A stretch of 7,815 nt of DNA from a virus (taxonomy: Duplodnaviria; Heunggongvirae; Uroviricota; Caudoviricetes), in the IMG/VR virus record IMGVR_UViG_2690316227_000004; one strand, 5' to 3'. The position numbers and the translations under genes were made by a program. This document shows positions 2,191 to 7,454 of the stretch, piece after piece (the stretch's first letter is position 1; the number at the start of each line of letters is the position of its first letter). The notes under the pieces were generated by a model. It was not told where the DNA came from and searched no databases. It was given only the letters and a program-made list of their open reading frames with translations.

Positions 2191-2393
2191 AACCTCACTC
2201 CCAGCGGACGACGGCGACGTCGGGTTGTCCCCAGTACCGACTCCGCATCATTGATCGCCCGGTTAAGCTCATCCAGAGAAGCCGCCGTATATTCAATTCT
2301 GCGACCATCTTTCTGGACAGACACCACCCGTTTACCGGTTAATAAATCAAGGCGCGCCTGACGCAGCGCCTGCAGTTCAGCGACTGTAACCAT
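2187..2393 (-). CDS. W: Head-tail joining / head completion protein, lambda gpW-like (68 aa)
   Basis: The 68-aa product MVTVAELQALRQARLDLLTGKRVVSVQKDGRRIEYTAASLDELNRAI... matches my recollection of lambda gpW (…[34 protein letters not shown]…, also 68 aa). GGAGGA lies 5 nt upstream of the ATG. It sits between terminase A and the portal, as in lambda. Confidence 0.9.
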   Translation of the reverse strand: MVTVAELQALRQARLDLLTGKRVVSVQKDGRRIEYTAASLDELNRAINDAESVLGTTRRRRRPLGVRL

Positions 2394-4305
2394 TCACTCC
2401 TCCGGACAGCTTCGCTGCCAGTTCTTTCAGGGTTGGCCGGGTCGTCTCTTCTTCCCGGGATTTTGCCAGTACAGCCAGATCAAGCTGCCAGCGTTGCACG
2501 GACACACGTAATGCCGCGTAGGCATACACCAGGCAGTCCAGCGCTTCGTTACGCCGCTTTTTGTTATCCCACAGCAGACGCATCTTTCCTTTTTCCCACT
2601 TCTCCACCAGCTCTTCCGCCACCAGTTGCTGCGCCTCTGTCTGCGAAAAAATCTCCGGATCATCAGGAAAACGGATGGCATACGACGTGGCTTCATCCGC
2701 AGGCGAGGGATCGGCTTTCATACGGGCATAGAGAATTTCTTTTGCGGTGTCCGTTCCCACTTCACACAGATACACGCCCCGCTGATTGCGGGTTTTTGGC
2801 ATGGTGATCACCGGCTTGCCATAGACAGATGCGCCTTTTACCGGCAGCACCCGGAAAACACCGTGTTTTTTTGATCTCTGATAAACAATTTCACCATCGA
2901 TCCCCCCGGTGTCCCAGCAGACACGGGAAATAGTCATTTCGGTGCCATCCGCATGGCGGTATTTTTTGTTGATCGCCGCATCCACACGTAACAGCGTCTC
3001 TTCCTCATCAGGACGCCCCATAATGATGATTTTATCCACCAGAAAGGCTTCCTCTCCCGGAGCCCATCCCCAGACATACATCTCAAAACGGTTTCGCTGC
3101 GAGTCAATGCCCGCCGTCAGATAAACCACCCGGGCAGGCACCGCCGCCGTGTAACGCACCACCTTATCCATCAGTACCTGGTGATCGAGTTTTTCGCCCA
3201 CGGCCTCTTCCCAGGTCTCGCCCAGCGTGGTGTTCACAAAGGTTTTCAGGCCGTTGGGATCTTTCAGTGCATCCAGCCAGTCATAGACAATCTGTACCCA
3301 GGTGGTGAACGGACTGTACGCCGTCCAGATATGGAACGTGATGGAGCGCGGCGGCGGAATTTCATCACCCCGGGCGCTGAAAAACGTCAGACCGTCACGG
3401 GTCCACATGCCCGTGTTTTCACAGATCCACCGCCCGTTGCTCTGGTCCAGTTCAGACTGATGGATCACGCAGCCATGATGTTCACAGAGGTAGAAAACAC
3501 TTTCAGGGCTGTCCTTCTCCCATTTAAGCCCAAAAGGCGTGGACTCATCGCCAAATTTCAGATACTGCTCCTCCCCACAGTGCGGGCAGGGCACATAAAA
3601 ACGCATAAAATGCGCCGACTCGTTAGCGGCTTTTTCGATCTGGCAGGTGCCTTTGATTTTAGGCGTCGAGCCGCGAATGGATTTTGGCCACACCGACCCC
3701 TCAATACGCTTATCCCCCAGCAGGGTTGGCGAGCCCTCTTTTTCGACATCCGGCTCGAACGAGGAAAGTTCGTCATAGCAGACCACGTCCACGGATTTTT
3801 CACGGTAGTTTTTGGCGGCAGCGCCGCCCAGGCACCAGAAACCGACGCCCGATGAAAAGCGTTTCAGCGTGAGAGTATTGTCACGATGTTTACGACCCAG
3901 CCATGGGGAAAGGTCTTTCAGGCATGGCACGTTCCGAATCGTCGCCTCCACGTGAGACTTCATAAAATCTTCAGCGGCAGAATCCGTGGGCTGAAAAAGC
4001 AGACTGTTTCGGGATTTATGCTCAATAAAATACCCGACCACCCCCAGCAACATCTTTGTATAGCCAACACGGGCAGATTTAATCAGATTAACAGTGCGGA
4101 TCTGATCATTCCCCATGCTGTTCATGATGGCGATCTGGAATGGCAGCGTTTTCCATTCGCCCTCACCATATGAAGATTCTTTAGGCAGATAATAATTTTG
4201 ATCAGCCCATTCAACTGGCGTCACCGGCAATGCCCTTATCAGGGGCTGTAATGCAGTTGTGACAGCGCTCATCATATTATTCAGTTGTTGCTCTGATATA
4301 TTCAT
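2377..4305 (-). CDS. A: Terminase large subunit, lambda gpA-like (642 aa)
   Basis: The ORF is collinear with lambda gpA (641 aa). Shared features are the MNIS start, VEWADQNYYLPKES, the Walker-A-like KSARVGYTK, the CPHCGEEQYLKFGD...YLCEHHGC Cys/His cluster, TAYSPFTTWVQIV, LTAGIDSQ, and KKRRNEALDC near the C-terminus. I place the start at ATG 4305-4303 (MNISEQQ...), not the track's 4362, by alignment to lambda gpA and because this gives the lambda-like short overlap with the Nu1 gene. Confidence 0.97.
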   Translation of the reverse strand: MNISEQQLNNMMSAVTTALQPLIRALPVTPVEWADQNYYLPKESSYGEGEWKTLPFQIAIMNSMGNDQIRTVNLIKSARVGYTKMLLGVVGYFIEHKSRNSLLFQPTDSAAEDFMKSHVEATIRNVPCLKDLSPWLGRKHRDNTLTLKRFSSGVGFWCLGGAAAKNYREKSVDVVCYDELSSFEPDVEKEGSPTLLGDKRIEGSVWPKSIRGSTPKIKGTCQIEKAANESAHFMRFYVPCPHCGEEQYLKFGDESTPFGLKWEKDSPESVFYLCEHHGCVIHQSELDQSNGRWICENTGMWTRDGLTFFSARGDEIPPPRSITFHIWTAYSPFTTWVQIVYDWLDALKDPNGLKTFVNTTLGETWEEAVGEKLDHQVLMDKVVRYTAAVPARVVYLTAGIDSQRNRFEMYVWGWAPGEEAFLVDKIIIMGRPDEEETLLRVDAAINKKYRHADGTEMTISRVCWDTGGIDGEIVYQRSKKHGVFRVLPVKGASVYGKPVITMPKTRNQRGVYLCEVGTDTAKEILYARMKADPSPADEATSYAIRFPDDPEIFSQTEAQQLVAEELVEKWEKGKMRLLWDNKKRRNEALDCLVYAYAALRVSVQRWQLDLAVLAKSREEETTRPTLKELAAKLSGGVNGYSR

Positions 4306-4783
4306 CAAGTAAATCCGGTAATTTATCCCCTGCCCGCGCACACTGATTTGCCCCCTTAGCAATAAGGGTTTTCAGATGGTCAAGATGGCGCGGTGTTAAA
4401 TCAGGAAACTGTCGCTGCATGGATAAAGGGATGGAATCAAGCGTACTGGATAACGCCATTGCCAGCTTACTGAGGGCAAAAATACAGAATCCGGTGTCAA
4501 TAAGCTTACCTTCGGTTACCTGATTTTTAAGTTTTTGAGCTACGGCCTGTTCTTCTGTCAGTTCAGCTCTGGCCCGAAGCAGCCTTTCCTCCAGATCGCC
4601 CTCGTCATCAGGTATTCTCTGATTGTGTTGTCGCCGCTCGCGATCTATCTCCAGTACAGTTTTAACGTCATAAAAAACTTCCCTCCCCCGACGCTCAACA
4701 GGAGGAACGCCCCATTTATCAAATGCCTGAACAGATATACCGATGGAGGAGGCCATATCACTTTTATTCAATAAAAAGGCCAT
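4277..4783 (-). CDS. nu1: Terminase small subunit, lambda Nu1-like (168 aa), with a divergent N-terminal DNA-binding region
   Basis: The C-terminal two-thirds aligns with lambda Nu1 from memory (…TGFCIFALSKLAMALSSTLDSIPLSMQRQFPDLTPRHLDHLKTLIAKG… versus …TAFCTFVLSRIAGEIASILDGLPLSVQRRFPELENRHVDFLKRDIIKA…). The N-terminal LNKSDMASSIGISVQAFDKWGVPP fits a winged-HTH region but differs from lambda. I chose the start at ATG 4783-4781 because GGAGAGGAG lies directly upstream. The longer track ORF (to 4888) would run through the cosB repeats. Confidence 0.85.
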   Translation of the reverse strand: MAFLLNKSDMASSIGISVQAFDKWGVPPVERRGREVFYDVKTVLEIDRERRQHNQRIPDDEGDLEERLLRARAELTEEQAVAQKLKNQVTEGKLIDTGFCIFALSKLAMALSSTLDSIPLSMQRQFPDLTPRHLDHLKTLIAKGANQCARAGDKLPDLLDEYIRATTE

Positions 4784-4813
4784 CTCCTCTCCATAAGCCA
4801 TCGATAAAAAGCG

Positions 4814-4960
4814 ATACAACAACCATGTGTTTTTACAAAACCATTTGATATCATTTACATTTTTCGCATTGACGACATCAAAACACATCGTAAGGTTGTT
4901 GTATTTATTTTATTTTCACCTTACTTATCAATTAGATATACCAAACAATTAAACAACAAC
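4814..4960 (-). promoter_or_regulatory. cosB-like terminase small-subunit binding region with three GTTGTTGT-core repeats in a lambda-like R3 / R2(inverted) / R1 layout
   Basis: In the Nu1 sense, AGTTGTTGTTT lies at 4960-4953 (core). GGTTGTTGTAT reads on the plus strand at 4894-4904, so it is inverted. GGTTGTTGTAT lies at 4824-4814. The last two are perfect 11-mers. Distances from the cohesive end (about 51, 107 and 187 nt) and orientations (direct, inverted, direct) parallel lambda R3, R2 and R1. The repeat sequence differs from the lambda CGTTTCC-type R sites. An A/T-rich tract with TATCAA (about 4925-4935) between the first two repeats is a possible IHF (I1-like) site. It matches the WATCAANNNNTTR consensus only partially. 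Confidence 0.55.
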
Positions 4961-4998
4961 TCCCCCTCAAAAAATCTCATAAATAGCGAAAACCCGCG

Positions 4999-5010
4999 AG
5001 GTCGCCGCCC
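4999..5010 (-). other. cosN cohesive-end sequence (12-nt GGGCGGCGACCT on the minus strand)
   Basis: The minus strand reads GTTACG|GGGCGGCGACCT|CGCGGGTTTTCGCTATTTATGA. From GGGCGGCGACCT through TTTATGA it is identical to the first ~35 nt of the lambda left end as I remember it. Lambda-like right-end sequence (…TCCTTTCCGG.GATCCG…GTTACG) precedes it. It lies about 215 nt upstream of the Nu1-like start, as in lambda. Confidence 0.9.
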
Positions 5011-5033
5011 CGTAACGGCCCGGATCGCCGGAA

Positions 5034-5040
5034 AGGACCC
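5034..5040 (-). other. cosQ-like element (GGGTCCT on the minus strand)
   Basis: AGGACCC on the plus strand is GGGTCCT on the minus strand. It sits within CCGGAAAGGACCCG, which matches the lambda right-end segment containing the 7-bp cosQ, about 25-30 bp from the cosN nick region. Confidence 0.7.
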
Positions 5041-5284
5041 GCTAAAATGATAATGGTTATCAGTTGCAGCAAATCCAGTTTCTTCCACCATCGCACCGGA
5101 CCAGCGACCATGAGGGGACAACGCCGCGCTCCGTTTACGCGGTAAACCCCGGTGTGTATCGTTTTTGATTATCCCCGCACACTCGCGCAGAGGAGTCTCC
5201 CTGTCGGGCTGCGGTCTCTGTTAATGAGGGAATACAGCGACGATACAGCGCATGATGTGTCAGGCTTGAATACCTTTATCCGTT

Positions 5285-5310
5285 AAAAGGGATATCAGTT
5301 AAGTTATCCC
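5285..5310 (-). terminator. Weak intrinsic-terminator-like hairpin downstream of the accessory operon
   Basis: The minus strand reads GGGATA-acttaactga-TATCCC followed by TTTTAACGG. That is a 6-bp stem, a 10-nt loop and a 4-U tract. Confidence 0.35.
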
Positions 5311-5332
5311 GTGTAGGGTATAAGCCATTATC

Positions 5333-5354
5333 AAGCCCACCAGTAGATGGGCTT
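5333..5354. other. Perfect 7-bp hairpin immediately after the 85-aa gene stop (3' stabiliser or weak terminator)
   Basis: AAGCCCA-ccagtaga-TGGGCTT lies 9 nt beyond the stop at 5363-5365. Neither strand has a convincing U-tract (TTTGT on plus, GATAAT on minus). Confidence 0.3.
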
Positions 5355-5362
5355 TGTAATGG

Positions 5363-5620
5363 CTACTTCGCTTTTGCTTCCGCTCGCTTACGCCGGCGCT
5401 CTTCTTTCCTCTCGGCTTTTGCCATGTCCATGAATGCCTGCATGATCGAGTTCCGCATCATGTAGCTAACAAAGTGATGATTGACACAGCCGTTGAGGCG
5501 CAGCTGCTCGCCAAACTCATCCACCGAGGCCAATGCTTCCATCATACCCTTCTCGCCTTTCATGAACTCTGAGAAGTCGCGCCCCGCTCTGGAGGCGCAT
5601 TCAATGACACGATCACTCAT
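5363..5620 (-). CDS. Hypothetical 85-aa protein with a strongly basic Lys/Arg/Glu-rich C-terminal tail; partner of the KilA-N gene
   Basis: The ATG overlaps the upstream stop as ATGA (5617-5620), which suggests translational coupling. The product is MSDRVIECASRAGRDFSEFMKGEKGMMEALASVDEFGEQLRLNGCVNHHFVSYMM...AKAERKEERRRKRAEAKAK. I do not recognise a family for it. Hairpins follow the stop. Confidence 0.6.
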   Translation of the reverse strand: MSDRVIECASRAGRDFSEFMKGEKGMMEALASVDEFGEQLRLNGCVNHHFVSYMMRNSIMQAFMDMAKAERKEERRRKRAEAKAK

Positions 5621-6114
5621 CCCGGAAGCCCGGGGATCGAAATCTGCAACTGGTTAGCCAGGGAGTTAATTTCAGCGATCAAACCAGGTTTCGTGTAGCG
5701 CCATGCCGCGAGGCCTTGTCCACAGAAGCTCGCCATGTCTTTTTTCTGATCAAACTCATGACATTTCATGTTGAGCTGCGCACTTAAGCTGTTCCGATGA
5801 TGAAGCTCTCCGGTGAAGTAATCATCGAGGACTTTATAGGCTGCATATTTAAATCCGGGGTTTAGCCATGCTGCGTAATCATAAGCAACGAACTTTCCGC
5901 CATAAGTTCCACCGTGCGCACCGCGTTCCGTAAAAACCACAGATTCGTGGTTTTTCTCCAGCTCAGCCAAGAACTCTTTGGTCTGCTTGTTTCGCAGGTA
6001 GTGGTACGGAGATTCAGATTCACTTTTACCACTGGCTTTCCACATATCAGTGAGGCAGATCATGCCATCTTCACCGATACGGATTGGTTGATTGAAGAGG
6101 GTTAATGATTTCAT
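5617..6114 (-). CDS. KilA-N domain DNA-binding protein (165 aa) with an uncharacterised ~60-aa C-terminal extension
   Basis: The N-terminal ~105 aa shows the KilA-N pattern: PIRIGEDGMICLTDMWKASGK...YLRNKQTKEFLAELEK...GGTYGGKFVAYDYAAWLNPGFKYAAYKVL. This compares with the family pattern of dG-y-n-T-mckaaGk ... tkeF ... GTWvH..lA..fA.WisPeF. I do not recognise the C-terminal 60 aa. Confidence 0.7.
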   Translation of the reverse strand: MKSLTLFNQPIRIGEDGMICLTDMWKASGKSESESPYHYLRNKQTKEFLAELEKNHESVVFTERGAHGGTYGGKFVAYDYAAWLNPGFKYAAYKVLDDYFTGELHHRNSLSAQLNMKCHEFDQKKDMASFCGQGLAAWRYTKPGLIAEINSLANQLQISIPGLPG

Positions 6115-6229
6115 AGCGTGTACCTACTCTTTGAAATGAACCTTTGCCGCACAGGAAACCAGCCCACCGAGGCTCGCCAGCACTAACTGGTATCCTCAAA
6201 GGCCCATTCCAAAGGGGCAGGTTCGGTGT

Positions 6230-6254
6230 AAAAAACATGCGTTGCGGTACGCAT
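6230..6254 (-). terminator. Intrinsic terminator (second of a tandem pair) downstream of Rz
   Basis: The minus strand reads ATGCGT-accgca-ACGCAT-G-TTTTTT-AC. That is a perfect 6-bp stem followed by a T6 run. The run is on the minus strand only. Confidence 0.5.
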
Positions 6255-6260
6255 TTATTG

Positions 6261-6284
6261 CAAAAAGCCCCGCATCGCGAGGCT
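6261..6284 (-). terminator. Intrinsic terminator (first of a tandem pair) downstream of Rz
   Basis: The minus strand reads AGCCTCGC-gat-GCGGGGCT-TTTT-G. That is an 8-bp GC-rich stem with one G-U wobble, followed by a T run. It lies about 35 nt after the Rz stop codon at 6317-6319. Confidence 0.6.
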
Positions 6285-6316
6285 CATTAAATGGACTTTG
6301 TGATTTGCAAAAAAAA

Positions 6317-6754
6317 TTATTTCAGGCATTGCGTCCTGATGTACTCCTGCAGGTAGTTAACCTGCGCGGTTATCTTGTCGATTCCACCTCGGAGACGGTA
6401 ATAATTGAGTTCAGCATCTGCTGTAAGTCCTGGGCTTTCTCCATCGCCCATGCTGCTGGCTCCGGTCGTTGACTTTGCACAGGTGGCGGAGACTTGCAGG
6501 CGCTTACGCCCAGCAGAAACATCAGCACGGAGACTTTCGATAGTCGCATTAGCATCAGCAAGCTCCTTTGTGTATCTGGCGTCAAGTTCTGCTACATCAC
6601 GTTGCCGCTTCTGCATATCAGCGATGATGGATGTGGCTTTATCGCGCTGCTCTTTGTAGGCGATGGCGTTATCACGGTAATGATTAACAGCCCATGAAAG
6701 GCAGACGATGAGGCAGATGACCAGAACGTAGATAATCGCGGTTACTCTGCTCAT
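6317..6754 (-). CDS. Rz: i-spanin (inner-membrane spanin subunit), lambda Rz-like (145 aa)
   Basis: [39 protein letters not shown]...[19 protein letters not shown]... closely parallels lambda Rz ([39 protein letters not shown]...). I place the start at ATG 6754-6752, which overlaps the endolysin TGA as ATGA. The track's earlier ATG at 6766 would add MGAT. Confidence 0.9.
6370..6555 (-). CDS. Rz1: o-spanin (outer-membrane lipoprotein subunit), Rz1-like (61 aa), fully embedded in Rz in a different frame
   Basis: The product [20 protein letters not shown]|[16 protein letters not shown]... has a signal peptide ending in the lipobox V-S-A-C and a Pro-rich mature part, as lambda Rz1 does. AAGGAG lies 7 nt upstream of ATG 6555. 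The gene is wholly inside Rz. Confidence 0.8.
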
Positions 6755-7248
6755 TGTTGCCCCCACAAACAGACTTCACGCTCAATCTCACGGCGAGTCA
6801 TCAGCCCTTTCCATTGCTTACCGCCAGCGTATGTCCAGCGCCGTAGCTGATCACATGCGCCTTTGATATCGCCCTGGTTTATTTTGCGAAGAAGCGTCGA
6901 TGTTCTGAAATTGCCAGCGCCCACGTTGTAAACGAACGAGTAAAGAGCGCCGCGCGTTGTTTCCGGTATATCGACTTTGATGTACGGGTTTATTTGTCTG
7001 GCGACCGTGGCAAGGTCTTTATTCAGGAGGGCTTTGCATTCTGCTTCGGTATACGTTTTACCGGGCATGATGTCTTTTCCGGTGTGTCCATGACATACAG
7101 TCCATACGCCAACGATATCTTCGTATGGTATGTAGCTGACACCTTCCAGGCCATCGTCACCACTCGGACCAGTGATGAGCACAGACGCTATGGCAACAGC
7201 CCCACCACCAATAGCAGCAGCAACGGCTTTTCGTAATGATGGAGGCAT
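6751..7248 (-). CDS. R: SAR (signal-anchor-release) endolysin, phage 21 R-like, T4-lysozyme/GH24 type (165 aa)
   Basis: The N-terminal weakly hydrophobic Gly/Ala-rich segment [21 protein letters not shown] is typical of SAR domains. The catalytic spacing E-x8-D-x5-T is present in [30 protein letters not shown] and the length match phage 21 R as I recall it. The ATG overlaps the holin stop as TAATG. Confidence 0.93.
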
Positions 7249-7454
7249 TATTCACCTCTCGCAGCCTTGCGCTTATCTTCTTTAATCTTGAAATAAAGGT
7301 TTGTCAGATACGTCAGCAGGCCAAACAGCAGACTCCCCAGCACACCTATTGCCACCCACTGGGACGGAGAGACTTTGTCCAGCAGCTGCAGTAACCAGTA
7401 TCCCGTCCCCACCGCTGACGTGGTGTATGACACACCCGTTGTGATTTTTTCCAT
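7248..7454 (-). CDS. S: Class II holin / pinholin, phage 21 S(68)-like (68 aa)
   Basis: [68 protein letters not shown] is collinear with S21-68 ([42 protein letters not shown]...[20 protein letters not shown] from memory). It has two TMDs and a basic C-terminus, and it lies directly upstream of the SAR endolysin. Confidence 0.9.

What the first reader, a model, noticed from the sequence alone, without database searches (positions are those of the whole stretch)
5363..6114. Translationally coupled KilA-N + 85-aa basic-tail gene pair in the Rz-cos moron slot
- **Position.** Two minus-strand genes share an ATGA stop/start overlap at 5617-5620. They sit between the spanin genes and cos. Lambda carries bor and other non-essential cargo in this slot, and lambdoid phages commonly swap accessory genes there.
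- **First gene.** It has a recognisable KilA-N DNA-binding fold in about the first 105 residues, followed by an unrecognised ~60-aa tail.
- **Second gene.** It has no family I can name. Notable residues are Cys8, Cys55, His58 and His59, and it ends in an extremely charged helix-like tail (AKAERKEERRRKRAEAKAK).
- **Context.** The pair is insulated upstream by two tandem intrinsic terminators and followed by two hairpins. It is visibly less GC-rich than the adjacent head genes. As far as I recall it has no equivalent in lambda or phage 21.
- **Expression.** I found no convincing sigma70 promoter in 6115-6229. Expression may therefore depend on Q-antiterminated late transcription. That would point to a lytic-cycle role, such as host takeover, anti-defence or a packaging/cos accessory, rather than a lysogen-expressed defence. 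A weak or non-sigma70 promoter cannot be excluded.

This is the best candidate in the window for an uncharacterised two-component system.
Basis: partly seen in the sequence, partly recalled or inferred. Interest (0 to 1): 0.6.

Follow-up and report, generated by a model that had tools for sequence, protein, structure and literature searches.

The report
Late-operon KilA-N gene pair with leader
The two overlapping genes are real and travel together between enterobacterial temperate phages, but their function is untested; the new points are a conserved folded RNA leader upstream that hides the first gene's ribosome-binding site, and a link between the small protein and nuclease genes found at the same genome position.

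Summary
**Observation.** It holds. Two minus-strand genes (5617-6114 and 5363-5620) share an ATGA overlap and lie between Rz and cosN (4999-5010).

**Gene 1.** It is KilA-N plus ORF11CD3. The "unrecognised tail" is therefore a named Pfam domain.

**Gene 2 (p85).**
- It belongs to phrog_875, a small Enterobacterales-only family of unknown function.
- It is predicted to form three helices.
- The cited residues are really Cys45, His48 and His49, not 55, 58 and 59.

**Distribution.**
- The pair equals HK620 hkbK/hkbL and also occurs in Stx phages 1717 and 2851.
- It covers at least 80% of the query in 388 of 5426 complete E. coli genomes.
- In Klebsiella phages it sits among tail genes.

**Linkage.**
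- p85 follows only two KilA-N protein types: +ORF11CD3, and +P63C as in HK97.
- KilA-N+ORF11CD3 genes also occur without p85.
- The p85 N-domain is fused to a T5orf172 (GIY-YIG-type) nuclease domain in epsilon34 gp68 and HK106 gp64, in the same slot.

**Leader (new).**
- A terminator, a hairpin and a ~110-nt covarying structure pair an anti-SD with the SD.
- The same leader precedes many unrelated cargo genes.
- It matches the P22 RNA "P22F".
- It has no Rfam family.

**Verdict.** This is a late-transcribed, translationally throttled accessory DNA-targeting module. Its biochemical role is unproven.

The parts
5617..6114 (-). Gene 1: 165-aa KilA-N (residues 9-101) + ORF11CD3 (residues 109-161) protein of the Bro network. 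It is the HK620 hkbK homologue.
   Evidence: ORF. Pfam KilA-N 58.4 bits (cut-off 23.8) and ORF11CD3 47.5 bits (cut-off 25). phrog_129 'transcriptional regulator' at 1e-60. 100% identical protein in Stx phages 2851 and WGPS8.
5363..5620 (-). Gene 2 (p85): 85-aa predicted three-helix protein of phrog_875, ending in a basic C-terminal helix. Its start overlaps the gene 1 stop (ATGA at 5617-5620). It is the HK620 hkbL homologue.
   Evidence: phrog_875 at 3e-54. AlphaFold2 pLDDT 94.6 with helices 2-19, 25-41 and 47-83. Invariant ECASRAGRDFSEF..GEK and GCVNHHF motifs. Third-codon-position excess.
6262..6283 (-). T1: intrinsic-terminator hairpin GCCUCGC-GAU-GCGGGGC followed by a U run. It lies ~33 nt after the Rz stop codon (6317-6319). 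It is the 5' element of the conserved leader.
   Evidence: Fold. Invariant in 31 aligned leader variants. Annotated as a rho-independent terminator in mEp235, epsilon34 and HK106.
6230..6254 (-). H2: second hairpin (AUGCGU-ACCGCA-ACGCAU). In this window type it is followed by U6, so it looks like a second terminator.
   Evidence: The hairpin is conserved (A6 columns 46-61, 100% paired). The U run is absent in most other variants.
6112..6229 (-). Structured leader core.
- Anti-SD CCCCUUUGG (6209-6217) pairs with the SD region CAAAGAGUAGG (~6123-6133).
- Long helices P2 and P3 extend this stem.
- A covarying extra helix joins CACCGA (6223-6228) and UCGGUG (6165-6170).
- Positions 6120-6208 correspond to the P22 small RNA 'P22F'.
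   Evidence: MFE -74.4 kcal/mol, z = -3.07. Consensus fold and covariation. A covariance model built without this leader type finds 6112-6235(-) at E = 0.0015. The P22F sequence from PMC13397905 is identical over its first 81 nt (my count). No Rfam hit.
5323..5364 (-). Strong stem-loop overlapping the p85 stop codon, with no U tract. It is conserved with the cassette in HK620, HK97 and mEp235.
   Evidence: Fold. Alignment.
5074..5362 (-). Non-coding DNA downstream of p85. It is shared at 96% with Stx phages 1717 and 2851, which carry a different packaging module. This marks the downstream mosaic boundary of the cassette.
   Evidence: query 375-701 corresponds to window 5074-5400. One search shows the different terminase and HNH context.
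4999..5010 (-). cosN-like 12-mer GGGCGGCGACCT, the context landmark that fixes 'upstream of cos'.
   Evidence: Sequence. Identity to the lambda cohesive end is from my own knowledge.

Best explanation
**What it is.** This is one allele of a polymorphic accessory cassette carried in the late operons of temperate enterobacterial phages. The unit runs in this order:
1. Terminator T1.
2. Hairpin H2.
3. A ~110-nt structured leader.
4. A Bro-network DNA-binding gene (here KilA-N + ORF11CD3).
5. p85.
6. A stem-loop.

**How it is probably expressed.**
- Transcription (inferred): there is no promoter of its own, so the pair is reached only by antiterminated late transcription that reads through T1 and H2. 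It is therefore silent in the lysogen.
- Translation of gene 1 (shown by structure and covariation; effect inferred): the leader pairs a conserved anti-SD with the SD, so gene 1 is translated weakly or only briefly. A second covarying helix is either a pseudoknot or a transient co-transcriptional fold.
- Translation of p85 (inferred): ribosomes terminating on gene 1 re-initiate at the ATGA overlap.

**What it probably does (inferred).**
- Gene 1 binds DNA through its KilA-N domain.
- p85 is a second small targeting module. Its N-domain is homologous to the non-nuclease end of T5orf172 (GIY-YIG-type) proteins found in the same slot. In such nucleases that end is the DNA-binding domain.
- Together they form a dispensable DNA-directed regulator that acts during lytic growth. 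It would be antirepressor-like or aimed at competitors or the host.
- It is not a defence system expressed from the prophage.
For: **Genes and domains**

**Mobility as a unit**
- The same pair occurs in four unrelated contexts:
  - behind Rz in a lambda-type packaging context (this window);
  - in the HK97/HNH-type Stx phage 2851;
  - in the P22-like phage HK620;
  - between tail genes in Klebsiella phage RAH1.
- T1 and the leader accompany the pair in each case.

**Linkage of p85 to the KilA-N gene**
- All 80 closest IMG/VR loci keep the pair. 79 of them keep the ATGA overlap.
- In the divergent branch, 66 loci have KilA-N+P63C followed by p85 with a 1-2 nt gap, and one has KilA-N+ORF11CD3 with the overlap.
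- In the cargo census, p85 follows:
  - KilA-N+ORF11CD3 in 14 of 16 loci;
  - KilA-N+P63C in 6 of 6;
  - pRha cargo in 0 of 8;
  - other cargo in 0 of 15.
- In six loci the KilA-N gene was deleted to a stub. In four of them p85 carries lesions (C8Y, A9T, a truncation, loss of the N-terminus).

**Leader**
- 94.2% of cells are paired against 85.1% in shuffles (0 of 500 shuffles reach this).
- 19 pairs change on both sides against 11.1 expected.
- The covariation score is 0.283 against 0.120, and slid controls reach at most 0.111.
- The extra helix has 15 sequence variants, all complementary.
- One variant shows a compensatory SD/anti-SD change, CCUAUAGA with UCUAUAGG.
- The SD is paired in the MFE fold of most representatives.
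- The independent covariance model hits the window leader.

**Expression**
- No promoter was found.
- An 89-nt RNA corresponding to the leader accumulates during P22 infection (PMC13397905).

**p85 domain link**
- P0132 and P0134 combine the p85 N-domain with T5orf172/MUG113.
- epsilon34 gp68 and HK106 gp64 lie right after Rz + T1 + leader.
- T5orf172 genes carry a DNA-binding domain at one end and the nuclease at the other (PMC10448857).
Against: - No experiment bears on the function of either protein.
- No physical interaction was tested.
- The same p85 (95-100% identity) follows two KilA-N proteins that are only 24% identical. This argues against a tightly co-evolved complex.
- KilA-N+ORF11CD3 genes work without p85 in phiEt88, D3 and L177.
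- The p85 fold is a generic helical bundle with no DNA-binding match.
- DNA binding by the p85 N-domain is inferred only from its position in fusion proteins.
- A weak or non-sigma70 promoter inside the leader is not excluded.
- Q-dependence is inferred, not shown.
- The extra helix cannot coexist sterically with the full long hairpin. As a nested alternative it is 5-22 kcal/mol less stable. Its role is therefore unclear.
Confidence: 0.5

Rival explanations
1. The two genes are functionally independent. p85 is a free-standing, possibly domesticated, DNA-targeting domain of homing-endonuclease origin. It merely rides in the same transcription and translation unit as whatever KilA-N gene lies upstream.
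For: - Near-identical p85 sits behind KilA-N+ORF11CD3 and behind KilA-N+P63C, whose KilA-N domains share 24% identity.
- The p85 N-domain is fused to T5orf172 without any KilA-N gene nearby in epsilon34 and HK106.
- Two of the six loci that lost the KilA-N gene keep an intact p85.
- Domesticated T5orf172-type DNA-binding domains have a precedent in CapR (PMC10448857).
Against: - p85 was never seen behind a non-KilA-N cargo: 0 of 23 loci.
- The start codon always overlaps or abuts the upstream stop.
- Four of six partner-less copies are damaged.
Confidence: 0.25
2. The pair is an antirepressor-type cross-talk module. The KilA-N protein, modulated by p85, inactivates repressors of co-resident prophages or satellites, or of the phage itself, during lytic growth.
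For: - PHROG and GenBank annotators label relatives 'anti-repressor' or 'transcriptional regulator'.
- The slot alternates with Rha-family genes behind the same leader.
- The Gifsy-1 IsrK locus shows an RNA-gated, translationally silent antirepressor-like gene (PMC4825925).
Against: - No ANT/KilA-C or P22_AR domain was detected.
- The labels are homology transfers, not tests.
- No LexA box is visible in 6115-6316 (my reading).
Confidence: 0.12
3. The pair is a defence or superinfection-exclusion system expressed in the lysogen, of the BstA abortive-infection type, with its own promoter.
For: - BstA is a prophage defence protein with a KilA-N-like N-domain (PMC8585504).
- There is a weak partial hit of the KilA-N region to the PADLOC candidate PDC-S22.
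Against: - There is no BstA model hit, and the PDC-S22 match covers only ~30 residues.
- The position is inside the late operon behind a conserved terminator, with no promoter-like site.
- BstA genes lie next to the repressor.
Confidence: 0.07
4. The pair is a toxin/antidote couple. The KilA-N protein is toxic, as P1 KilA is, and the translationally coupled p85 neutralises it.
For: - Tight coupling of the two genes, terminator insulation and SD sequestration suggest that the first product is harmful.
- P1 kilA kills the host when expressed (my own knowledge). The P1 record notes only that it is non-essential.
Against: - Close KilA-N+ORF11CD3 homologues exist without p85.
- Rha and other cargo genes use the same leader without p85.
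- No known antitoxin family matches p85.
Confidence: 0.06

Closest known systems
HK620 hkbK/hkbL and the same pair in Stx phages 1717 and 2851; HK97 p60/p61 and mEp235 gp59/gp60 as the KilA-N+P63C variant
   Same: - Orthologous genes in the same order with the same overlap or near-abutment, behind Rz with the same terminator and leader.
- The gene 1 protein is 93-100% identical in HK620-type and Stx phages.
- p85 is 95-100% identical.
   Different: - None of these genes has been characterised.
- HK97-type partners carry P63C instead of ORF11CD3.
- HK97 p61 is frameshifted after about residue 54.
- The packaging module next to the cassette differs in every case.
Bro / KilA-N domain-shuffling network (Iyer, Koonin & Aravind 2002), including Pseudomonas phage D3 orf11, which named ORF11CD3, and P22 Rha
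   Same: - Gene 1 has the D3 orf11 architecture, KilA-N + ORF11CD3.
- P22-type Rha proteins carry pRha + ORF11CD3 behind the same leader.
- ORF11CD3, P63C, T5orf172 and KilA-N all belong to that network (PMC10111431; the Pfam provenance is from my own knowledge).
   Different: - The network description covers domain architectures only.
- To my knowledge it does not describe the p85 family, its fusion to T5orf172, or the shared RNA leader.
T5orf172 (GIY-YIG subfamily) homing-endonuclease-like genes and their domesticated DNA-binding derivatives such as PLE CapR
   Same: - The p85 N-domain is homologous (28% identity, E = 3e-11 pairwise; phrog_4284) to the non-nuclease end of epsilon34 gp68 and HK106 gp64.
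- Those proteins have a C-terminal T5orf172/MUG113 domain and sit at a mosaic boundary.
   Different: - p85 has no nuclease domain.
- Its N-domain is helical, not the CapR/DUF723 zinc-finger type.
- Cys8 and the His pair are not conserved in the fusion proteins.
Gifsy-1 IsrK-orf45-anrP locus
   Same: It works alike. A terminator-containing leader RNA lies in front of an antirepressor-like gene whose mRNA is translationally inactive through intramolecular pairing (PMC4825925).
   Different: - There is no sequence or Rfam relationship.
- IsrK has its own promoter and lies next to antQ, not behind Rz.
- Activation in trans by the short RNA has not been shown here.
P22 sncRNA 'P22F'
   Same: Window 6128-6208(-) is identical to the first 81 of its 89 nt. 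P22F ends 6 nt before the rha start codon (PMC13397905).
   Different: - That paper assigns P22F no function and no structure.
- Here it precedes a KilA-N gene instead of rha.

Membership tests
KilA-N domain proteins (PF04383) | Match to the family profile above the curated threshold | tested here: met
   58.4 bits against a cut-off of 23.8, residues 9-101, profile positions 8-106 of 107.
KilA-N domain proteins (PF04383) | KilA-N/APSES-like DNA-binding fold and actual DNA binding | not tested
   Gene 1 was not modelled. A profile of nine KilA-N cargo proteins finds no solved relative by sequence. DNA binding needs an experiment.
ORF11CD3 domain (PF10549) | Match to the family profile above the curated threshold at the C-terminus | tested here: met
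   47.5 bits against a cut-off of 25, residues 109-161, profile positions 1-54 of 54. The same ...IPGLP(G/K) C-terminal ending occurs in pRha+ORF11CD3 cargo proteins.
Phage antirepressors of the Ant / KilA-C type | ANT (PF03374), P22_AR_N/C or AntA domain | tested here: not met
   Pfam finds only KilA-N and ORF11CD3 at E <= 0.1.
Phage antirepressors of the Ant / KilA-C type | Binds and inactivates a phage repressor | not testable with these tools
   Needs biochemistry or genetics.
BstA abortive-infection defence | BstA profile match (KilA-N-like N-domain plus the BstA C-domain) and a position next to the prophage repressor | tested here: not met
   PADLOC gives only a ~30-residue hit to candidate PDC-S22. 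The gene lies in the late operon behind Rz.
Moron in the sense of Juhala and Hendrix (autonomous transcription unit) | Own sigma70 promoter upstream and a factor-independent terminator downstream | tested here: not met
   No promoter-like site lies on the minus strand in 4800-6800. A terminator lies upstream instead. The downstream hairpin has no U tract. The scan is a simple consensus search, so weak promoters are not excluded.
Moron in the sense of Juhala and Hendrix (autonomous transcription unit) | Inserted 'extra' DNA found at different genome positions in related phages | tested here: met
   The cassette lies behind Rz in E. coli and Salmonella phages and between tail genes in Klebsiella phages.
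T5orf172 / GIY-YIG homing-endonuclease-like genes | T5orf172 or MUG113 nuclease domain | tested here: not met
   p85 has no Pfam domain. Only its N-domain is shared with the T5orf172 proteins P0132, P0134 and epsilon34 gp68.
phrog_875 (p85 family) | Full-length profile match | tested here: met
   E = 3.2e-54, residues 1-85 on profile positions 1-85 of 85. There are 138 clusters at 90% identity, and every source-named cluster among the 120 listed is Enterobacterales. Only 22 representatives at 50% identity exist among 1.84 billion proteins.
Leader RNA family defined here (model R1); P22F | Full-length match to a covariance model built without this sequence type | tested here: met
   Window 6112-6235(-), 25.2 bits, E = 0.0015, model positions 1-115 of 115. 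These were the only hits in 23.8 kb. E-values from the shortened calibration are rough.
Leader RNA family defined here (model R1); P22F | Conserved helices supported by compensatory changes, including anti-SD with SD | tested here: met
   19 of 34 pairs change on both sides, and 0 of 500 shuffles reach the observed values.
IsrK (Rfam RF01394) or any other Rfam family | Covariance-model match | tested here: not met
   No hit to the leader at E <= 1 in the window or in six other variants.
Type II toxin-antitoxin pair | Recognisable toxin or antitoxin family, and obligate co-occurrence | tested here: not met
   No such family appears in Pfam, NCBIfam or PADLOC. Gene 1 homologues occur without p85.

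The most novel reading that the evidence does not exclude
**Leader as an undescribed RNA switch.**
- The conserved leader would be a new class of cis-regulatory RNA switch.
- It combines a terminator, a hairpin and a covarying long stem that sequesters the SD, plus an extra helix that forms a pseudoknot or a kinetic trap.
- It would gate translation of potentially harmful DNA-targeting cargo in the late operons of temperate enterobacterial phages: KilA-N, Rha and T5orf172 genes.
- It would define a portable expression platform that recombination reloads with new cargo.

**p85 as a new targeting domain.**
- p85 would be a new DNA-targeting domain shared with homing-endonuclease-like nucleases.
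- That would make the post-Rz slot a locus of inter-phage competition or homing rather than a passive 'moron' site.
Probability: 0.3. Interest if true: 0.7.

Novelty: new variant of a known kind. Interest (0 to 1): 0.5.

Why it matters
- **Prevalence.** The pair is common. It covers at least 80% of the query in 388 of 5426 complete E. coli genomes, and it occurs in Shiga-toxin phages and in the model phages HK620 and HK97. It is still annotated only as "KilA-N domain-containing protein | hypothetical protein".
- **Testable regulatory logic.** The pair belongs to a family of cassettes driven by one conserved structured leader. Mutating the anti-SD, the SD or the extra helix should change expression. 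The model also explains why a stable RNA (P22F) appears in P22 infection.
- **Handle on p85.** Linking p85 to the targeting end of GIY-YIG-type nucleases gives a first experimental approach to a protein family with no other clue.
- **Wider relevance.** If the cargo acts on other phages, satellites or the host genome late in infection, it bears on prophage cross-talk and on Stx-phage biology.

Tried and rejected
**Searches that gave nothing useful**
- Fold searches of the high-confidence p85 model returned only generic helical bundles:
  - Foldseek against PDB: best E = 1.6.
  - BFVD: best E = 0.27.
- The AlphaFold-database library (afdb50) was not available.
- Sequence searches of PDB found no relative for p85, gene 1 or a KilA-N profile.
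- NCBIfam gave nothing.
- PADLOC gave only a ~30-residue KilA-N hit to candidate PDC-S22 and a chance QatB hit.
- Rfam had no family for the leader.
- The literature search on hkbK/hkbL returned only unrelated papers.
- Henthorn & Friedman 1995 (rha) and Iyer et al. 2002 are not in the held library. What I say about them rests on my own knowledge.
- The genome-contig scan returned only six loci. The family is narrow, so it added little.

**Ideas considered and dropped**
- *Zinc site at Cys8/Cys45/His48/His49.* These residues are conserved within p85. They are not conserved in the T5orf172-fused homologues, so they are not needed for the fold.
- *LexA-controlled antirepressor.* I saw no CTGT-N8-ACAG box in 6115-6316 (reading).
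- *The extra helix as a stable nested alternative fold.* It is 5-22 kcal/mol worse than the SD-sequestered fold.

**Not done**
- I did not model gene 1 or the complex.
Full report
**1. What is in the window**

All genes below are on the minus strand:

| Feature | Coordinates |
|---|---|
| P21-type holin | 7248-7454 |
| Lysozyme | 6751-7248 |
| Rz, with Rz1 embedded | 6317-6766 |
| Gene 1 (flagged) | 5617-6114 |
| p85 (flagged) | 5363-5620 |
| cosN-like GGGCGGCGACCT | 4999-5010 |
| Nu1 (ORF as listed) | 4277-4888 |
| Large terminase | 2377-4362 |
| Head-tail joining gene (my assignment from lambda gene order; no domain search run) | 2187-2393 |
| Portal (same basis) | 598-2190 |

The ATGA stop/start overlap is at 5617-5620.

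**2. The two proteins**

Gene 1 (165 aa):
- It has a KilA-N domain (residues 9-101, 58.4 bits) and an ORF11CD3 domain (residues 109-161, 47.5 bits). Both are well above Pfam's thresholds.
- The "unrecognised tail" is therefore a named domain.
- The architecture is that of Pseudomonas phage D3 orf11. It belongs to the Bro/KilA-N/Rha domain-shuffling network (PMC10111431).

p85 (85 aa):
- It has no Pfam, NCBIfam or PADLOC family.
- It is a full-length member of phrog_875, "unknown function".
- The family is small:
  - 138 clusters at 90% identity, and every source-named cluster among those listed is Enterobacterales.
  - 22 representatives at 50% identity among 1.84 billion proteins.
- The invariant motifs are ECASRAGRDFSEF..GEK and GCVNHHF.
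- AlphaFold2 with a 26-sequence alignment gives a confident model (pLDDT 94.6) of three helices. The last helix is long and ends in the basic tail.
- Differences from relatives concentrate at third codon positions (7/1/19 and 6/1/21). The frame is therefore under purifying selection.

**3. Is the pair co-conserved?**

Largely yes.
- The same pair, with the same overlap, occurs in:
  - Stx phages 1717 and 2851 and several Stx2a phages, at 99.5% DNA identity;
  - HK620, as hkbK/hkbL;
  - all 80 closest IMG/VR loci, 79 of them with the ATGA overlap.
- These phages carry unrelated packaging modules: lambda-type Nu1/A here, HK97-type TerS/TerL plus HNH in 2851, and P22-type in HK620.
- In Klebsiella phage RAH1 the pair lies between tail genes. 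It therefore moves as a unit.
- At least 80% of the query is covered in 388 of 5426 complete E. coli genomes, where PGAP calls it "KilA-N domain-containing protein | hypothetical protein".
- In HK97, HK022, mEp235, Klebsiella, Scandinavium, Raoultella and Trabulsiella prophages, p85 follows a different partner. This partner is a 242-251-aa KilA-N + P63C protein, with a 1-2 nt gap before p85.
- The KilA-N domains of the two partner types are only 24% identical. p85 is 95-100% identical between them.

Exceptions:
- Six related loci lost the KilA-N gene down to a C-terminal stub. Four of their p85 copies are damaged.
- Five loci keep KilA-N+P63C but replace p85 after 16 codons with other cargo.
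- More distant KilA-N+ORF11CD3 genes stand alone: phiEt88 at 50% identity, D3 orf11 and L177.

Census of what follows the shared leader:

| Cargo behind the leader | Loci with p85 downstream |
|---|---|
| KilA-N+ORF11CD3 | 14 of 16 |
| KilA-N+P63C | 6 of 6 |
| pRha cargo | 0 of 8 |
| Other KilA-N cargo | 0 of 6 |
| p85N+T5orf172 | 0 of 2 |
| Unrelated cargo | 0 of 7 |

Linkage is strong and specific to two KilA-N proteins, but it is not obligate.

**4. A clue to p85**

- The profile search found distant relatives in which the p85 N-domain is fused to a C-terminal T5orf172/MUG113 domain. These are P0132 and P0134, which belong to phrog_4284.
- Phage examples are epsilon34 gp68 and HK106 gp64. 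Each is a single gene placed exactly in this slot, after Rz, the terminator and the leader. The pairwise comparison gives E = 3e-11.
- T5orf172 is a GIY-YIG subfamily nuclease found in homing-endonuclease-like genes. These genes carry a DNA-binding domain at one terminus and the nuclease at the other. They tend to sit at boundaries of genetic exchange (PMC10448857).
- By position, the p85 N-domain is the targeting end. p85 would then be a free-standing targeting domain with a basic helix. This is inference, not demonstration.

**5. The upstream "terminators" are part of a conserved structured leader**

Conservation:
- Intergenic regions from the window, HK97, mEp235, HK620, Klebsiella RAH1, epsilon34, HK106, phiEt88, ST64B and P22 align along their whole length. 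The genes behind them are unrelated.
- A pattern scan for the T1 hairpin, together with loci fetched earlier, gave 39 distinct leader variants in addition to those of the window and P22.

Cargo behind these leaders:
- KilA-N+ORF11CD3
- KilA-N+P63C
- KilA-N alone
- pRha+ORF11CD3
- pRha with another C-terminus
- p85N+T5orf172
- A GT2-like protein, sub-threshold (21.4 bits against a Pfam cut-off of 23.3)
- Three small or unknown proteins

Structure (RNAalifold on 31 variants):
- T1.
- H2.
- A long stem in which a conserved anti-SD (CCUUU) pairs with the SD (AAAGG).
- Helices P2 and P3.

Support for the structure:
- On the named structure, 94.2% of cells are paired against 85.1% in shuffles.
- 19 of 34 pairs change on both sides, against 11.1 expected.
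- The covariation score is 0.283 against 0.120. No shuffle out of 500 reaches any of these values. Slid controls reach at most 0.111.
- One variant changed the SD to UAUAGG and the anti-SD to CCUAUA in step.
- An additional helix joins the bases just 5' of the anti-SD to the apical region. It has 15 different, always complementary, sequence versions.

The extra helix:
- It crosses the long stem.
- As a nested alternative it is 5-22 kcal/mol less stable than the SD-sequestered fold.
- It is therefore either a pseudoknot contact or a transient co-transcriptional fold that briefly leaves the SD free.

Membership of the window leader:
- A covariance model built without the window-type leader finds window 6112-6235(-) full length, at E = 0.0015.
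- It also finds the P22 copy, and nothing else in 23.8 kb.
- No Rfam family matches.

Link to a detected RNA:
- Window 6128-6208(-) is identical to the first 81 nt of "P22F".
- P22F is an 89-nt RNA detected in P22-infected Salmonella. It ends 6 nt before rha and has no assigned function (PMC13397905).

**6. Expression model**

- No sigma70-like site lies on the coding strand.
- A conserved intrinsic terminator follows the upstream gene closely.
- The cassette is always co-oriented with late genes, including at its tail-region position.
- The simplest reading is as follows:
  - Only antiterminated late transcription reaches the genes.
  - The leader then limits or times translation of gene 1.
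  - p85 is made by re-initiation at ATGA.
- It remains an inference. A weak promoter is not excluded.
- The Gifsy-1 IsrK locus is a functional analogue, not a homologue. There, a terminator-bearing leader holds an antirepressor-like gene translationally silent (PMC4825925).

**7. Function**

- Nothing tested here or found in the literature assigns a biochemical role.
- The best-supported reading is a dispensable DNA-directed regulator, made of KilA-N plus a small targeting partner, that acts late in infection.
- Rivals are listed separately:
  - independent genes;
  - antirepressor cross-talk;
  - lysogen-expressed defence;
  - toxin/antidote.
- BstA-type defence is unlikely. There is no model hit, the position is wrong, and no promoter was found.

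**8. Novelty and score**

- Gene 1 is an ordinary member of a known network.
- The pair has been in databases since HK620.
- The following are not described, as far as I could find:
  - the specific p85/KilA-N linkage;
  - the p85 N-domain/T5orf172 relationship;
  - the shared covarying leader.
- I rate the finding as a new variant of a known kind, with interest 0.5.

Noticed in passing
window 6112-6283 (-); L002-L006, L093, L095, L174-L176 and many IMG/VR loci: A conserved, covarying ~170-nt leader (terminator T1, hairpin H2, SD-sequestering long stem, extra crossing helix) precedes unrelated cargo genes in many temperate enterobacterial phages. It equals P22 sncRNA P22F and has no Rfam family.
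   Followed up: yes
L174 2501-2986 (epsilon34 gp68); L175 2429-2917 (HK106 gp64); P0132, P0134: The p85 N-domain is fused to a T5orf172/MUG113 (GIY-YIG-type) nuclease domain. This single gene occupies the same post-Rz slot behind the same leader.
   Followed up: partly
L155, L157, L158, L160, L161, L164 (about 2849-3252): In six related Klebsiella-type loci the KilA-N+P63C gene is deleted down to a 16-aa C-terminal stub while p85 remains. Four of the six p85 copies carry lesions: C8Y, A9T, a truncation and loss of the N-terminus.
   Followed up: partly
L169-L173 (about 3001-3888): KilA-N+P63C is retained, but p85 is replaced after 16 codons by a 58-aa ORF and a 192-aa protein with an HEAGH (metalloprotease-like) motif. 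This may be alternative cargo.
   Followed up: no
L281 2747-2908 and 3245-3383 (-): Two complete leader copies lie about 340 nt apart on the same strand of one contig. One precedes a 75-aa ORF and the other a 173-aa KilA-N gene, so the cassettes are stacked.
   Followed up: no
L176 2076-2681 (P22 rha, NC_002371): The annotated rha/ORF201 start lies inside the conserved leader (the P22F region). An ATG with a Shine-Dalgarno sequence sits at L176 2146, about 70 nt downstream. The deposited start is probably too far upstream.
   Followed up: partly
window about 5325-5335 compared with L002, L003, L006 and P22: HK620, HK97, mEp235 and P22 carry an extra ~230-bp segment downstream of the first gene(s) of the slot. 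It corresponds to P22 sncRNA 'P22G' and the orf25 region. The window and Stx phages 1717 and 2851 lack it, leaving an 8-codon mini-ORF (ATGGCTTATACCCTACACGGGATAA).
   Followed up: partly
L003 2001-2234 (HK97 p61): The HK97 copy of p85 matches only residues 1-54 and is 77 aa long. Its differences are spread evenly over codon positions, which fits a frameshifted C-terminus. HK022 has an intact copy that is not annotated in NC_002166.
   Followed up: partly
L087 (contig binned as Candidatus Nanosynbacter MAG); Actinobacillus phage vB_Apl-pPE4 (H82, H120): Near-identical copies of the E. coli-type pair appear in records assigned to very distant organisms: 99% p85 on a 4-kb MAG contig, and 93% gene 1 in an Actinobacillus phage record. 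Misbinning or contamination is more likely than real host range.
   Followed up: no
window 4781-4888: The listed Nu1 ORF starts at ATG 4888. The Pfam Nu1 match and the Trabulsiella homologue begin at Met36 (MAFLLNKSD...), that is ATG 4783-4781. The real start is probably there.
   Followed up: no
window 6110-6229 compared with E. coli genomes (H200-H202): The leader core alone is 95% identical to sequences in front of 'Rha family transcriptional regulator' genes in other E. coli prophages. Recombination therefore swaps cargo at the leader/ORF junction.
   Followed up: partly
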